Virus record (IMG/VR): IMGVR_UViG_2531839369_000042
DNA length: 41,177 nucleotides
From: a virus
Lineage: Duplodnaviria; Heunggongvirae; Uroviricota; Caudoviricetes
Direction: 5' to 3' (one strand)
Made by a program: the position numbers. Below are positions 12,001-18,000 of this stretch, piece after piece (positions within the stretch are counted from its first letter, which is position 1; each line of letters starts with the position of its first letter).

Positions 12001-15000
12001 TTAATCATCGCCTCTTACGAACGCAGGGAACGGACGAACCTCTTCCGCCTCAACTGTGCCGTCATCAAAGGTTTTGACGTATATTTCTCGTCCGACGAGA
12101 AGCGCTTTACTGATTGCACTCTGCGCCACGCCAAAGTCCTTAGCGGCTTTCTTTTGGCCGAACCTGTATACGTAATCAGCCAGGGTCTCTTTTTTCATCG
12201 CCATAACTGACTCCTTCAAAATGCCCATATCATTACGCACAGTTATTAAAATGTCAACACCGCAGATATTTCATTACATATAACCAAAGGTGATATGGTA
12301 TGAACATGAAAAAGAAACCGTTAACCCCTGAGCAACTGGAAGACGCCAAGCGTCTGAAAAGTATTTTTAACGCTAAAAAGAAAGAGTTAGGCCTGTCGCA
12401 GGAATCATTAGCCTATGAATTAGGTGTTACCCAAAGCGCTGTTAATCAGCTAATGGCTGGCATCAACGCCATAAATGCCAGCCACGCAGCACAGCTTGCT
12501 AAGATACTGAATGTAAAGGTCGGAGATTTCAGTCCCAGCCTGGCAAAATCTATTGCAGAAATGGCGCTCGCAATTGAAGAGCCATTAACTCGTGTCCCCG
12601 CTTACGAATATCCGTTACTCTCCTGCGTACAAGCTGGCGCATTCTCAATGGATGATATTTCGTACACCGCAAAAGATGCGATTAAATGGATCTCCACCAC
12701 CACAAAAGCCAGTGACAGGTCGTTCTGGCTGGAGGTCAAGGGGCATTCAATGACCGCACCGCAGGGTGGTAAACCCAGCTTCCCTGAAGGTATGCTGATA
12801 CTCGTTGACCCTGAACGGGAAATCGAGGATGGCGATTTTTGCGTGGCCCGAATGAACGGCGATGAATTTACCTTCAAACGATTCATTCGTGAGAGCGGTA
12901 AAGCGTACCTGGAGCCGCTCAACCCACGATTCGACATGATTGAGTGTAACGAAAACTGCCAGTTTGTCGGAAAGGTCATCAAATCGCAGTGGAATGATGA
13001 GACTTTTGATTGAGCTCACAGAGTGATTTGACATCCTTCACGCCTGAAGAATGTGGAGGATGTCAAAAGCACGTTGGCATCATCATGCCACGTAAAGAGG
13101 ATTAGTTATGCTTCAAAAGCTAGACGTCGCAGACAGCGTGCGTCGCGAGCTGTCTCCCCGTACCGCGCGTAAACACAAAGCAGAGTTCGGCCAGTTCATG
13201 ACGCCTTCTGGCGTGGCCCGTTTTATGGCCTCCTTGTTTCCACCGAGCACAATGAAAACTTGCCGTCTACTGGACGCAGGCGCTGGTTTAGGCGCACTGT
13301 CTTGCGCCTTCCTCGACCGTTGGCTGGTTGGCGAGTTTGGCTTTGAGTCTGTCGAGGCAACAGCCTACGAAATCGACAAAAAGCTGTGTGGTCACCTTGC
13401 GAAGCACTTAACCGGGTACAGGAGAGTGACGCCCCGCATCATCGAAGGGGATTATATTGAGCTGGCAACCGCCGAAGGTCTACAGGATCGAGGTTATACC
13501 CATGCAATACTTAATCCGCCTTACAAGAAGATCAATAGCCAGTCAGCCCACCGGCAGGCTCTTCGCACTGTCGGTATCGAGACGGTAAATCTGTATTCCG
13601 CCTTTGTTGCACTGGCTGTAGGTGAGGTTGCACCTGGCGGGCAGATAGTGGCCATAATCCCACGTAGTTTCTGCAACGGACCGTATTACCGTCCGTTCCG
13701 TAATTTCATACTTGAGCGGGCAGCAATCCGCCATATTCATTTGTTCGAATCACGTAGCAAAGCTTTCAGGGATGACGATGTGTTGCAGGAAAATATTATC
13801 ATCCGCCTGGAGCGTGGAGGCCGTCAGGAGGCTGTTACAGTCACAACTTCGACCGATGATAGCTTTTTTGACCTGGTCACCTACGAACACCCATTTGACC
13901 AGATTGTGTACCCGGACGATTCGGAGCGGTTTATTCATGTGCCGACCACGCTCGAGAAAAGCACCATTGAGTTATCATCTGCCGTACAATGTTCGCTGGC
14001 TGATATTGGCGTGAAGGTATCGACCGGACCGATAGTTGATTTCCGACTGAAAGCTCATTTGCGCAGCATGCCAGAAGAAGGAACTGTTCCCCTGATCTAC
14101 CCGAGCCATTTGAGTATGAGTAGCACTGTCTGGCCTGTGGAAGGTTTGAAGAAACCCAACGCAATCATGCGCAACGACGAGACAGAAAAGTGGCTTTACC
14201 CGAACGGTTTTTATTGTGTGGTGCGTCGTTTCTCGTCGAAGGAGGAAAAGCGCCGAGTGGTAGCAAGCGTCGTTGATCCTGCTACCTTCAGTGAGTATTC
14301 AGTGTTGGGATTTGAAAATCACATGAACGTGTTTCATGAGAACAAACATGGGTTACCCGAGGCGCTGGCCCGTGGCTTGGCCGTGTTCCTGAACACTACC
14401 GCAGTGGATAAGTATTTCCGTCGCTTCAACGGGCATACACAGGTCAATGCAACCGACCTCAAGATGATTAAGTACCCAAGCCGTGACACTCTGATAGAGC
14501 TTGGCAAGTGGGCTATGCAACAAGAAACTCTCACGCAAGAACATATTGACGCTAAGCTAGGAGCTCTGACTGCATGAACAACCAAAATGATTATATTGAG
14601 GCCGCTCAGCAAATTATAGCATCCTTAGGCCTGCCCAGAGCGCAGCAGAATGAGCGTTCTGCTTTGTGTTTGCTGGCACTCCTGAACCTCACACCGGGAA
14701 AAGCATGGGCCGACGCGGAAAATCCGCTTGTGGGCATTACACCAATCATGAATTGGGTTCGGGAGCACTACGGCAAGGTCTACGCACCCAATACTCGTGA
14801 GACATTCCGCCGCCAGTCTATGCATCAGTTCTGCGCTGCTGGAGTAGCCCTCTACAATCCGGACAAGCCCGATCGCCCAGTGAACAGCCCGAAGGCTGTT
14901 TATCAGATCGAACCTGCTGCTCTGTCCATGCTACGCACTTTCGGCAGCCCGGCATGGCACGATAGCCTTGCAACCTATTTAGCCGAGCGTGAAACGCTGG

Positions 15001-18000
15001 TTACCCGCTATGCTAAGGAGCGCGAACAGAATCGTATCCCTGTTGAAATTGCTGCGGGCCAGCAAATAACCCTCAGTCCCGGCGAGCACAGCGAACTTAT
15101 CCGTGCCATAATAGAGGACTTCGCCCCACGTTTTGCTCCGGGTAGCGTGCTGGTCTATGCTGGCGACACTGGCGAAAAGTGGGGCTACTTCGACGCTCCA
15201 CTGCTGGCCGGGCTAGGTGTTGATGTGGATTCACACGGTAAAATGCCAGATGTGGTGCTACATTTTACTGCGAAAAACTGGCTGCTACTGGTTGAGTCTG
15301 TCACCAGTCATGGACCGGTTGATGGGAAGCGGCATGCTGAGCTTGCCAGGCTGTTTGCCGGATCAACAGCCGGACTTGTCTATGTGACCGCTTTTCCAAA
15401 TCGCTCCATCATGGGGCGATATCTTGGTGAAATCGCATGGGAAACAGAGGTATGGGTGGCTGATGCACCTTCTCATCTTATTCACTTCAACGGAGTGCGA
15501 TTTCTTGGCCCCTACTCTACTGAATGAGAACAGGACCAGATAAATAGCCCGGCCCATGCGCCGGGTTTTTCTTTGCATATCCCCTCCTGTTATCTGTCCC
15601 CTTAAAAAATAAATCACTTTAAAAATCAGTTAAGTAATAATTTCTCGTCCTTAAAAAAGCACCGACGGTATTTACATGAAAATAACCGCAAGTTATATTT
15701 ATTTCAAGCCAGAAACATCGCGCCCTTACACAGGGCTACATAAATCAGTCGTACGGCGCGACTTAACCCGCCGCAAAATGCTCTTTAACAATCTGGAGCT
15801 TTACAGCGTCAATGACCTGTTTAGACCCCTACACGTAAACGTGCTGTATCATCGGGTGCGATCCGGTCGATGAGAGAGTATCCCCGCGCGAGAGCGAGAA
15901 CGGCGTGAGAACGGGCAACACTGGCAGGAAGTTGGCGCTGACCAATACAGGGAATGTTTTGGGGTGTGGTGAAGGGTTCATGGACGGGAATATGTCGCAC
16001 GTAAAGCGGCGAGGCCCGAGGGACTATTGCTGAAGATAAGTAGGCCGAATCGGGTCGAAATGGGTCTCCCACCTGCCACATCGCCAAAGCATTTCCGAGA
16101 AAGGACGGTATTGACTGCGTGTGATGCCGGGGCTATATTGGGCGAACACCTTATAAAACGGGTGTCGGGATTCTCACCCCGCTGACAATCGAGGCGATAC
16201 AGACGCGCCAGCGTCTTTTTTTGTATCGACATACACGCACATCTTATCAATGGTGGGCTGTATGGGGCCGACTTCGGTCGGGCTGGTTCCCTTGATTGCC
16301 AGTTGTGAGAACCCTGTACAGTCCACCGCCAGCGAGCTTCTCACCTCCTGCGGTGGTTATTAATCACCAATCAAGGAGGCTGCCATTATGGCTACTATCC
16401 CAGTCCTTTCTCAACCTGAAATCACCATTTCCAATGGCCGCGCTGTTACTACGTCCTTTGCCGTTGCCGAATATTTTTGCAAGCGACACGATAACGTATT
16501 ACGTGCCATTGCAAATATTGAATGCTCAGAGAAATTTAACGCCCTCAATTTTGAGGACGTTACCTACACCGACGCCAAAGGCGAACAACGCCCAATGTAC
16601 CAAATCACCAAAAACGGATTCGTCTTCCTGGTGATGGGCTTCACTGGTAAAAAAGCAGCTGCATTCAAGGAAGCCTATATTGCTGAATTCGATCGCATGG
16701 AAAAACAGCTATGGGAACAGAAACAACTGGCTCTGTCTTCTCCTGCGATGAATATCAATTTTCCTTTATCGTGGTTTTCAGAGCATCACCCCTACGCCAC
16801 GATGAACTATGTTGATCGCAAGGTTATCAGCCTTGATGCTTCCGTACTCTTCGACATGCCAAGCCCAACTATGCGCATCCTCAACGAGCTACACAGCAAG
16901 GGCTATAACGTTGACGCCGCTGTCGCCGAATTTAACGCCTTCAAGCATCTGACGGAAGAAATGCGCCGTAAATTGCTGGATATTTCCCGCACATCGGAAA
17001 AATCTTCCCGCTTTGGTTTCAACGTTAATCTTTAATTAAATCTCTCCCCGATTATATATCGGGGATTAAATTAAATATCTGGATTAATTAACCGGAGGAT
17101 TTGTCATGCTCAAACCTCACTACGGAACCATATTAGTTTCTCGCAAGGACGTTAAACCCGGCACAGCAATTCTTTACAACGGGCGTTATTACATGGCGTC
17201 AGCTAACGTTAATAATGCACTTTACGCACATTCACTGATTGAAAAAATTCGCATTATTTCAGATGCAATAGAAGTTTACCTGAACCATAAAGGCCAGCCG
17301 TTAATCTCACCAGCCTGAAAGGAAATATCATGCTCAATCAAAAAATTAATATCAATGTAAAAAGCGTCGTAACGCCAGCAGAAACTATAATGGGTGAAGT
17401 TTTTATGGATGATAAAATCATCGCCTATTTTTTTGTCCTGCCTGATGAGGCTATTTCTGTTATTGATACGGAAGGCAATGTTATGTTTATCGCAGAAAAT
17501 CCAGAAGACATCGCATTACAGGCCGCTGCATATTTCTTCGCTAAGGAGCAGGAGGAAGAATGTGACTGCCCTGTCTGTCAGCTTTCCCGACAAATTAATT
17601 TAATGCATTAACCGAAATCAGGAGTTCCGCCATGAACGCATACCTCACCTGTGACCGAATAGAGGAGCGTCGCTGGGTTAATCAGCACATTCAGGATGAA
17701 AAGGATAAATGGATTGACGATCGGGCGCAGGAGCTTATCAGCATGTTCCCCGATAAACCATTGCTTATGAGCAGCCTTTTTTTACCCAAAGAAGCCCAGC
17801 TGGCACTTACTGGCGATAAAGCGGAAGAGGCTTACAACGATTATATCTCAGCGATCGCCTATGCACGGGCGGAAGAAGAATGGGAGAGGAAATTCTCCCC
17901 CTGTCCTTTCTGATTTTCAGGACCAATAAAAATGTTCGATATCGTTGAATTTGTTAAACAGCAGGAGCGCTTTTTCTGCGAAGCATTAACTGAACCGACG

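What the first reader, a model, noticed from the sequence alone, without database searches (positions are those of the whole stretch)
13108..15571. PstI/BsuBI-family restriction-modification operon in the immunity region where lambda carries rexAB
A gamma-class N6-adenine methyltransferase (NPPY) and a BsuBI/PstI-type endonuclease are translationally coupled (ATGA overlap) directly downstream of cI and upstream of a terminator. They would be expressed with the repressor in the lysogen, acting as a superinfection-exclusion moron and potentially methylating the host genome. I recall a PstI-like system on an Stx2 phage being reported, but cannot verify that this is the same one.
Basis: partly seen in the sequence, partly recalled or inferred. 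Interest (0 to 1): 0.65.

Follow-up and report, generated by a model that had tools for sequence, protein, structure and literature searches.

The report
Known EcoGIII restriction-modification operon, Stx2a prophage

Summary
A 489-aa gamma-class N6-adenine methyltransferase gene (13108-14577) overlaps by ATGA a 317-aa BsuBI/PstI-family endonuclease gene (14574-15527). The pair lies directly downstream of cI on the same strand and is followed by an intrinsic terminator (15546-15575).

The window is a PA2/PA8-type Stx2a prophage integrated at argW. Both proteins are 100% identical to ORF31 and ORF30 of phage P13374, the Stx2 phage of the 2011 O104:H4 outbreak clone. This is M.EcoGIII/R.EcoGIII, described in 2012. 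It methylates CTGC(m6A)G at about 99-100% of chromosomal sites in lysogens. It cleaves unmethylated CTGCAG, restricts lambda-like phages, and reduces conjugal plasmid entry about 10^4-fold.

Its place in this phage type, where cII, cIII and operators would be expected, was reported in 2015. The operon occurs in 139 of 5426 complete E. coli genomes.

Small additions from this work:
- The imported cassette is 13067-15528.
- Its left edge is the last 13 codons of a serine-resolvase gene. That gene is intact upstream of the homologous cassette in Pseudomonas syringae.
- A 16-bp hairpin separates cI from the cassette, and no promoter was found there, which favours read-through from cI.

Verdict: already known, low interest.

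The parts
12001..12204 (-). cro, divergent from cI. The longest ORF extends to a GTG at 12240.
   Evidence: Pfam Cro PF09048, E 4.8e-34. The annotated start in phage PA2 corresponds to window 12204.
12205..12299 (.). cro-cI intergenic control region (OR-like). It carries a PR-like promoter on the minus strand: TTGACA-17-AATGAT, 12257..12229.
   Evidence: Operators were not identified. This agrees with PMC4587872.
12300..13013 (+). cI-type, LexA-like repressor gene. It is the presumed first cistron of the cI-M-R transcript.
   Evidence: HTH_3 + Peptidase_S24. Annotated as cI in PA2, PA8 and P13374.
13027..13067 (+). 16-bp inverted repeat (RNA hairpin) between cI and the cassette, with no U-tract after it. 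It ends exactly where homology to R-M cassettes of other bacteria begins.
   Evidence: Repeat I7. The fold of 13011-13115 gives dG -35.7 kcal/mol, z -3.57. Boundary.
13067..13105 (+). Remnant of the last 13 codons of a serine-resolvase gene (KHVGIIMPRKED*). This is the left end of the imported cassette.
   Evidence: Translation. Alignment to the intact P. syringae resolvase C-terminus ...TLYKHVGVITPRQ* and to the Morganella remnant.
13108..14577 (+). M.EcoGIII: gamma-class N6-adenine DNA methyltransferase, CTGC(m6A)G. Motif X 13186-13206, motif I 13267-13299, NPPY 13513-13524. A Shine-Dalgarno sequence AGAGGA lies upstream.
   Evidence: 100% identical to P13374 ORF31. Specificity taken.
14574..14577 (+). 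ATGA overlap: R start codon and M stop codon. AGGAG lies 10 nt upstream of the R start.
   Evidence: The same 4-nt overlap is kept in the Morganella, Pseudomonas, Snodgrassella and Aeromonas cassettes.
14574..15527 (+). R.EcoGIII: BsuBI/PstI-family type IIP endonuclease. N-terminal HTH domain aa 7-143, PD-(D/E)XK-type catalytic domain aa 155-307. P225-D226 at 15246-15251, E241 at 15294-15296.
   Evidence: 100% identical to P13374 ORF30. 316/317 identical to a C227-11 draft record.
15546..15575 (+). Intrinsic terminator ending the operon: GC-rich stem followed by TTTTCTTT.
15576..15778 (.). AT-rich spacer (39% GC) found only in R-M-bearing prophages. Shared lambdoid backbone resumes at about 15779.

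Best explanation
This is the EcoGIII type IIP restriction-modification system, an isoschizomer of PstI and BsuBI, carried as a moron by a PA2/PA8-type Stx2a prophage.

M.EcoGIII methylates N6 of the adenine in CTGCAG on both strands of the lysogen's chromosome and of the prophage. R.EcoGIII cuts CTGCAG in incoming unmethylated DNA, so the lysogen resists other lambdoid phages and conjugative plasmids. Both activities are shown in the literature for identical proteins.

The expression route is inferred. The two genes lack a promoter of their own and are transcribed with cI, from PRM in lysogens, as a cI-M-R message that ends at the terminator at 15546-15575. The M-first order and the ATGA coupling tie R synthesis to prior M translation.

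The origin is shown by homology. A 2.46-kb M-R cassette (13067-15528) came from a resolvase-linked mobile unit that is widespread in Proteobacteria. It was inserted between the repressor gene and the leftward backbone.
For: Identity: window 12000-15700 is 100% identical to phages PA2, PA8, VT2phi_272 and phi346, and 99.8% identical to the O104:H4 phage P13374. M and R are 100% identical to P13374 ORF31 and ORF30.

Function, from papers held here:
- CTGC(m6A)G was methylated at 2390/2390 and 2434/2434 sites in O111 lysogens whose MTase is 99.7% similar to M.EcoGIII (PMC6602927).
- 98.8% of 2,902 sites were methylated in O145:H28 RM13514, against 0% in a strain lacking the cassette. The same paper states that the R gene is identical to the biochemically active C227-11 enzyme (PMC3893438).
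- Cloned EcoGIII restricts pESBL transfer about 10^4-fold and does not cut when the A is methylated (PMC7736820).
- It gives resistance to lambda-like phage (citing Fang et al. 2012).

Intactness: the family-invariant residues P225, D226, E241 and R253 are present. T244 is the majority residue at the position of SdaI K251.

Read-through from cI:
- No sigma-70-like site was found in 13014-13107.
- In P. syringae the homologous M starts 9 nt after the resolvase stop codon, so the cassette natively depends on an upstream gene.
- Lysogens are fully methylated during ordinary growth.

Insert status: homology to the Morganella and Pseudomonas cassettes spans exactly 13067-15528. An R-M-less prophage has its repressor gene next to the segment homologous to 15779-16000.
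Against: - No transcript map was available, so a weak internal promoter cannot be excluded. Candidates include one embedded in the conserved 39-bp resolvase remnant, or the weak 9/12 match at 13772-13799.
- The strong hairpin at 13027-13067 could attenuate or process the message, so M-R levels need not follow cI.
- The primary paper (Fang et al. 2012, Nat Biotechnol 30:1232) is not held in the library. Its results are cited second-hand.
- CTGCAG is only modestly depleted in the phage: 10 observed against 17-25 expected in PA2, rank 14 of 64 palindromes. Site avoidance therefore adds little.
- Reports disagree on whether the methylation has regulatory consequences. relays 1,951 genes affected in C227-11. 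The title of Carter et al. 2021 says that Dam, not the PstI R-M system, regulates virulence gene expression.
Confidence: 0.95

Rival explanations
1. The main selective role is prophage addiction. As a type II R-M pair it would kill cells that lose the prophage, because residual R outlasts residual M. That would stabilise the Stx2a prophage, with defence as a secondary effect.
For: Post-segregational killing by type II R-M systems is established general knowledge from Kobayashi and co-workers; it was not tested here. The same cassette travels with resolvases, plasmid genes, IS elements and a Zot-type filamentous prophage, which is the behaviour of a selfish mobile unit.
Against: Clean deletions of both genes are viable, with wild-type growth in RM13514. 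Natural decay variants exist: a frameshifted R in phage ArgO145 and a deletion remnant in strain G1/2. This role does not exclude defence, which has been shown directly.
Confidence: 0.3
2. The system matters chiefly as an epigenetic regulator. CTGCAG methylation by M.EcoGIII would reprogramme host gene expression and virulence.
For: relays that deleting the system in C227-11 altered expression of about 1,900-1,951 genes and affected growth (Fang et al. 2012).
Against: [quoted passage not shown] Its R-M deletion mutant grew like the wild type. An intact, active R is not needed for a purely regulatory role.
Confidence: 0.15
3. The endonuclease is inactive or the specificity is not CTGCAG. It could for example be an SdaI-like 8-bp cutter, since SdaI is the closest solved structure and the SdaI catalytic K251 is replaced by T here. 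The pair would then be in effect an orphan methylase.
For: SdaI (CCTGCAGG) is the only PDB hit. The motif reads ESVT where SdaI has EAVK. R-inactivated variants do occur in relatives.
Against: T is the commonest residue at that column across 54 diverse family members (26 T, 3 K), while PD, E and R253 are invariant. The ORF is full length and identical to the enzyme reported as biochemically active. All CTGCAG sites are methylated in lysogens, not only CCTGCAGG. Cloned EcoGIII restricts 10^4-fold.
Confidence: 0.02

Closest known systems
EcoGIII R-M system of the Stx2 prophage of E. coli O104:H4 C227-11 / phage P13374 (Fang et al. 2012). The same system is called the 'BsuBI/PstI R-M' of O145:H28 RM13514, M.Eco95JB1III of O111:H-, and 'bsuBI' of PST2 O157:H7 phages.
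   Same: M and R are identical at the protein level to the P13374 copies. The flanks are the same: cro, cI, M, R, terminator. The DNA is 99.8-100% identical over 3.7 kb.
   Different: Nothing in the operon differs. The surrounding prophage is the O157:H7 PA2/PA8 type rather than P13374, and it differs beyond 15700 and in its IS629 content.
BsuBI (Bacillus subtilis) and PstI (Providencia stuartii), the prototype CTGCAG systems
   Same: Same Pfam families for R, named after these enzymes. Same recognition sequence according to the literature. From my own knowledge of Xu et al. 1992, not checked here, BsuBI also has M and R in the same orientation with M first.
   Different: The prototype sequences could not be retrieved with these tools, so percent identity is not given. 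From my own knowledge, the PstI genes are divergently transcribed. Here the genes overlap and appear to be promoter-less.
SdaI (PDB 2ixs), the closest solved structure
   Same: It aligns over aa 8-315 at E 1.2e-77, with the same two-domain architecture: an N-terminal HTH recognition domain plus a catalytic domain.
   Different: From my own knowledge, SdaI recognises the 8-bp CCTGCAGG. SdaI has K251 where this enzyme and most of the family have T.
Lambda rexA-rexB, and other morons placed just downstream of cI
   Same: Position and presumed logic match. The genes follow the repressor gene on the same strand, are followed by a terminator, are expressed in the lysogen, and protect it against other phages.
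   Different: There is no homology. The mechanism is restriction of unmodified DNA, not abortive infection. This phage type lacks an identifiable OL, N, cII and cIII.
Resolvase-M-R mobile cassettes of Pseudomonas syringae, Snodgrassella alvi and Morganella morganii
   Same: 78-87% DNA identity across the whole M-R unit, with the ATGA overlap retained.
   Different: Those copies keep an intact or decaying serine-resolvase gene immediately upstream. The phage keeps only its last 13 codons, and cI occupies the upstream position.

Membership tests
BsuBI/PstI-family type IIP restriction-modification system (EcoGIII) | The endonuclease has both the BsuBI/PstI N-terminal HTH domain and the C-terminal catalytic domain, each full length. 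| tested here: met
   PF17728 matches aa 7-143 (profile 3-139 of 140) at E 1.2e-54. PF06616 matches aa 155-307 (profile 1-153 of 154) at E 4.6e-61. PADLOC REase_II E 1.6e-168.
BsuBI/PstI-family type IIP restriction-modification system (EcoGIII) | Family-invariant catalytic-core residues are retained: PD...E of the PD-(D/E)XK-like motif. | tested here: met
   P225 is present in 54/54, D226 in 53/54, E241 in 50/54 and R253 in 50/54 of the aligned diverse members, and all four are present here. T244 is the modal residue at the SdaI K251 column.
BsuBI/PstI-family type IIP restriction-modification system (EcoGIII) | The cognate methyltransferase is an N6-adenine, gamma-class enzyme: motif X, then motif I, then NPPY, with a C-terminal target-recognition region. 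| tested here: met
   FGQFMTP at aa 27-33, LLDAGAGLGAL at aa 54-64, NPPY at aa 136-139. Pfam Eco57I methylase domain. PADLOC MTase_II E 5e-248 over the full length.
BsuBI/PstI-family type IIP restriction-modification system (EcoGIII) | The M and R genes are adjacent and form one unit. | tested here: met
   4-nt ATGA overlap at 14574-14577. The same arrangement occurs in four other genera.
BsuBI/PstI-family type IIP restriction-modification system (EcoGIII) | Sequence identity to the experimentally characterised EcoGIII proteins. | tested here: met
   489/489 and 317/317 identical to P13374 ORF31 and ORF30, from the O104:H4 outbreak clone. 316/317 identical to the C227-11 draft record C22711_2126.
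BsuBI/PstI-family type IIP restriction-modification system (EcoGIII) | Recognition of CTGCAG, with m6A protection and cleavage of unmodified sites. | not testable with these tools
   Literature on identical or 99.7%-similar proteins supports it: 98.8-100% of CTGCAG sites methylated, R biochemically active, 10^4-fold restriction.
BsuBI/PstI-family type IIP restriction-modification system (EcoGIII) | Direct pairwise similarity to the prototype PstI and BsuBI proteins. | not tested
   The prototype sequences did not surface. The two homologue searches were saturated by near-identical E. coli entries, and the representative library carries no names.
Lambda RexAB-type immunity-region moron | Located immediately downstream of cI, on the same strand, and closed by a terminator. 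| tested here: met
   cI ends at 13013, M starts at 13108, and the terminator is at 15546-15575.
Lambda RexAB-type immunity-region moron | Co-transcribed with cI from PRM in the lysogen. | not testable with these tools
   Support is indirect only. There is no promoter-like site in 13014-13107. The cassette is natively abutted to an upstream gene. Lysogens are fully methylated.
Lambda RexAB-type immunity-region moron | Homology to RexA/RexB. | tested here: not met
   Pfam assigns the two proteins to methyltransferase and BsuBI/PstI endonuclease families only.
C-protein-controlled type II R-M systems | A small HTH controller (C) gene and C-box upstream of R. | tested here: not met
   There is no additional ORF within 13067-15528 other than M and R. 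The 41 nt upstream of M are a resolvase remnant.

The most novel reading that the evidence does not exclude
The M-R pair is a promoter-less cassette captured from a resolvase-linked mobile unit, with a 13-codon resolvase scar at 13067-13105. In the phage it is expressed only by read-through from cI, past a 16-bp hairpin (13027-13067) that sets the M-R dose. Restriction and modification would then be wired to the lysogenic switch: on in lysogens and shut off on induction. This would affect how a naive, unmethylated host survives lysogenisation, and whether progeny phage DNA leaves fully methylated.
Probability: 0.4. Interest if true: 0.3.

Novelty: already known. Interest (0 to 1): 0.1.

Why it matters
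The system is a textbook case of a prophage moron that changes the host's methylome and its barrier to horizontal gene transfer. It sits in the Stx2a phages of high-virulence lineages: the O104:H4 2011 outbreak, O157:H7 argW/PST2 strains, O145:H28 and O111. All of this has been published since 2012.

What remains open is narrow:
- how M and R are transcribed relative to cI;
- how a naive host survives their simultaneous arrival;
- whether the methylation has real regulatory consequences, on which reports conflict.

The cassette boundaries and resolvase scar found here say where the phage obtained the system. They do not change what it is.

Tried and rejected
- I looked for OL-type operators shared between the cro-cI intergenic region (12205-12299) and 15570-16390, using 15-mers with up to 3 mismatches, 11-mers with up to 1 mismatch, and palindromes. 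Nothing convincing turned up. Yin et al. 2015 also failed for this phage type.
- I looked for an empty site, meaning the same cI and hairpin joined directly to 15529 onward, in 5,426 E. coli genomes and in the phage collection. There is no clean empty site. I found only a deletion remnant in strain G1/2 and a second cI allele that also carries the R-M. The hairpin therefore cannot be assigned to phage backbone or insert.
- I tried to read Fang et al. 2012 by PMC id and by DOI. It is not held.
- Two large homologue searches were swamped by near-identical E. coli entries and did not return the PstI or BsuBI prototypes.
- CTGCAG avoidance is modest and unremarkable among palindromes, so I do not use it as evidence.
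- The lack of the SdaI catalytic lysine raised the possibility of an inactive R. I rejected it after the family alignment.
- I considered a promoter in the cI-M gap. TTGACA at 13028 has no usable -10 element, and TTGGCA-17-GAGGAT would leave no leader. I rejected both as unconvincing.

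
Full report
**Observation**

ORF 13108-14577 (+, 489 aa) and ORF 14574-15527 (+, 317 aa) are listed. The sequence ctgcATGAac shows that the R start codon overlaps the M stop codon by four bases.

M has a Shine-Dalgarno sequence AGAGGA upstream of its ATG. R has AGGAG 10 nt upstream of its ATG. Upstream on the same strand is a LexA-like repressor gene, 12300-13013, with HTH_3 plus Peptidase_S24 domains. A Cro-family gene is divergent from it. Downstream, a GC-rich stem at 15546-15567 followed by TTTTCTTT is a classical intrinsic terminator.

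**Family assignment**

R matches both Pfam domains named after BsuBI and PstI over their full lengths, at E 1.2e-54 and 4.6e-61. It also matches a PADLOC type II endonuclease model at E 1.6e-168. The only solved relative is SdaI, at E 1.2e-77 over aa 8-315.

M carries motif X (FGQFMTP, aa 27-33), motif I (LLDAGAGLGAL, aa 54-64) and NPPY (aa 136-139) in that order. That is the gamma-class arrangement. M also matches the Eco57I-type methylase domain and a PADLOC type II methyltransferase model over its full length at E 5e-248.

One point needed checking. SdaI has EAVK with catalytic K251 where this enzyme has ESVT. I aligned 52 diverse family representatives from a search of 1.84 billion proteins with this enzyme and SdaI, giving 54 sequences. 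At that column T is the majority residue (26 of 54) and K is rare (3 of 54). P225, D226, E241 and R253 are essentially invariant and are all present here. There is no sign of inactivation.

**What it is**

Window 12000-15700 is 100% identical to the Stx2a phages PA2, PA8, VT2phi_272 and phi346. It is 99.8% identical to P13374, the Stx2 phage of the 2011 O104:H4 outbreak clone. The M and R proteins are 489/489 and 317/317 identical to P13374 ORF31 and ORF30. R is 316/317 identical to an early C227-11 draft record.

This is therefore M.EcoGIII/R.EcoGIII, described by Fang et al. 2012 (Nat Biotechnol 30:1232). That paper is not held in the library, but its results are relayed by three held papers.

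[quoted passage not shown] It reports 2390/2390 and 2434/2434 CTGCAG sites methylated in O111 lysogens. It also relays resistance to lambda-like phages and altered expression of 1,951 genes.
- PMC3893438 reports 98.8% of 2,902 sites methylated in O145:H28 RM13514, against 0% in a strain lacking the cassette. It states that the R gene is identical to the biochemically active C227-11 enzyme.
- PMC7736820 used the cloned system to restrict pESBL transfer about 10^4-fold. It notes that the enzyme does not cut when the A is methylated.

The position of the system was also reported before. Yin et al. [quoted passage not shown]

Carter et al. 2021 deleted the system in RM13514 without a growth defect. 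Their title concludes that Dam, not this R-M system, regulates virulence gene expression.

The operon is in 139 of 5,426 complete E. coli genomes and is always chromosomal. Each exact protein sequence has been seen on at least 1,000 contigs.

**Context in the window**

The window is a PA2/PA8-type prophage (Oslovirus). It is 99.99-100% identical to PA2 apart from IS629 positions, and it is integrated at tRNA-Arg(CCT), which is argW.

In an R-M-less lambdoid prophage (strain YPE10), a LexA-family repressor gene lies about 225 bp from the segment homologous to window 15779-16000. The stretch from the end of cI to about 15778 therefore behaves as an insert. This matches the position in which lambda carries rexAB. 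The analogy is positional only.

**Additions from this work**

Homology to the M-R cassettes of Morganella morganii (87% DNA identity) and Pseudomonas syringae (78%) spans exactly window 13067-15528. It starts immediately after a 16-bp hairpin at 13027-13067. It ends one base after the R stop codon.

The 39 nt at 13067-13105 read KHVGIIMPRKED*. This matches the C-terminus of a serine resolvase. The gene is intact and ends 9 nt before M in P. syringae (...TLYKHVGVITPRQ*). It is a full-length pseudogene in Snodgrassella and a 25-codon remnant in Morganella.

The phage thus acquired a resolvase-linked mobile M-R unit, with the breakpoint inside the resolvase gene. Other copies lie in a Zot-type filamentous prophage of Aeromonas, or have R truncated next to an IS21-family element in Acidithiobacillus.

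**Mechanism**

Shown in the literature for identical proteins:
- M methylates CTGC(m6A)G genome-wide in lysogens.
- R cuts unmodified CTGCAG.
- The pair excludes lambdoid phages and restricts conjugation.

Inferred: the genes are transcribed with cI. Four observations point that way.
- No sigma-70-like site lies in the 94-nt cI-M gap.
- The cassette natively abuts an upstream gene.
- Lysogens are fully methylated during ordinary growth.
- A terminator closes the unit.

The M-first order and ATGA coupling would bias synthesis towards M. The hairpin has no U-tract, so it is not a classical terminator. It may be a processing or attenuation element, but its role is unknown.

CTGCAG is only mildly under-represented: 6 observed against 11 ± 3.5 expected in the window. 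In the full PA2 genome the figures are 10 observed against 17-25 expected, ranking 14th of 64 six-base palindromes.

**Rivals**

Addiction of the host to the prophage, and epigenetic regulation, are possible additional roles. Neither displaces defence. The regulatory role is contested. An inactive R or a non-CTGCAG specificity is effectively excluded.

**Verdict**

The system is already known in sequence, specificity, activity, phenotype and genomic position. Interest is low. The resolvase scar, the cassette boundaries and the cI-M hairpin are minor new details. The only open question of some value is the transcriptional wiring to the lysogenic switch.

Noticed in passing
window 16146-16221 and 16246-16333 (+); second pair at 29420-29493 and 29519-29602 (+): Two isrK Hfq-binding RNA plus C4 antisense RNA pairs pass Rfam gathering scores. 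The first pair lies just downstream of the R-M terminator and directly before a Rha-domain gene (16388-17035). A promoter-like site TTGACT-17-TATATT at 16111-16139 fits the isrK 5' end. This looks like a P1/P7 immI-like antisense control module where a lambda-type phage would have PL/OL/N.
   Followed up: partly
window 13027-13067 (second small hairpin 13071-13093): A 16-bp perfect-stem hairpin lies between cI and M. The fold of 13011-13115 gives -35.7 kcal/mol, z -3.57. It has no U-tract and ends exactly at the cassette boundary. Its function is unknown. It could be a processing site, an attenuator or a recombination scar.
   Followed up: partly
window 13067-13105: A 13-codon remnant of a serine-resolvase gene (KHVGIIMPRKED*) lies immediately upstream of M. 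The gene is intact in P. syringae, a pseudogene in Snodgrassella, and a 25-codon remnant in Morganella.
   Followed up: yes
window 1-817 and 19742-21051: There are two copies of a 1.31-kb IS identical to the one the PA2/PA8 papers call IS629. It has an IS3-type rve transposase and an ALIL frameshift pseudoknot at 20077-20193. The copy cut by the window start is at the PA8 position, between the antirepressor and lysin genes. The copy at 19742 is at neither the PA2 nor the PA8 position.
   Followed up: partly
window 30816-31442 (+): An intact MT-A70-family methyltransferase gene. The same gene is split by IS629 in phage PA2. In phage PA8 it is reported to be a ribosomal RNA methyltransferase that raises spontaneous induction and virulence (PMC10810198; Pfam). 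This prophage therefore carries the 'high-virulence' intact allele.
   Followed up: partly
window 4621-6537: The stx2a region: stx2B 4955-5224 and stx2A 5236-6195 (-), mapped from PA2. AsxR anti-stx2 sRNA lies at 4621-4673 (+) and STnc100 at 4675-4880 (-). Three phage tRNAs, Arg-TCT, Arg-TCG and Met/Ile-CAT, lie at 6286-6537.
   Followed up: no
window 33636-41177: attL overlaps tRNA-Arg(CCT) (argW) at 33637-33711. Immediately beyond it lie a second tyrosine integrase (33837-35030) and a gene with a P22 injectosome translocase domain fused to an acyltransferase domain (35205-36341, -). This suggests another integrated element in tandem at the same tRNA.
   Followed up: no
L011 (phage ArgO145) 2575-3529; L007 (E. 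coli G1/2) 2144-2446: Natural decay variants of the same operon exist. ArgO145 has a frameshifted R with an intact M. Strain G1/2 keeps cI followed by only a 100-aa R fragment. The window's copy is intact.
   Followed up: yes
protein representatives P0241, P0244, P0245, P0248 and others; PADLOC PDLC03359: Many family members of about 840-880 aa carry the endonuclease domain at the C-terminus of a methyltransferase. An 840-aa PADLOC model is matched by both M (positions 12-510) and R (531-839). Fused M-R single-chain versions of this system therefore exist.
   Followed up: no
phage records H78-H80, e.g. Lyz12581Vzw; E. coli F690 H41: A second cI allele has a different N-terminal DNA-binding half and shares the C-terminal half and the hairpin at 94% identity. 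An R-M allele of 95.7% identity also exists in E. coli genomes. I did not check whether that R-M allele is the one linked to the second cI allele.
   Followed up: no
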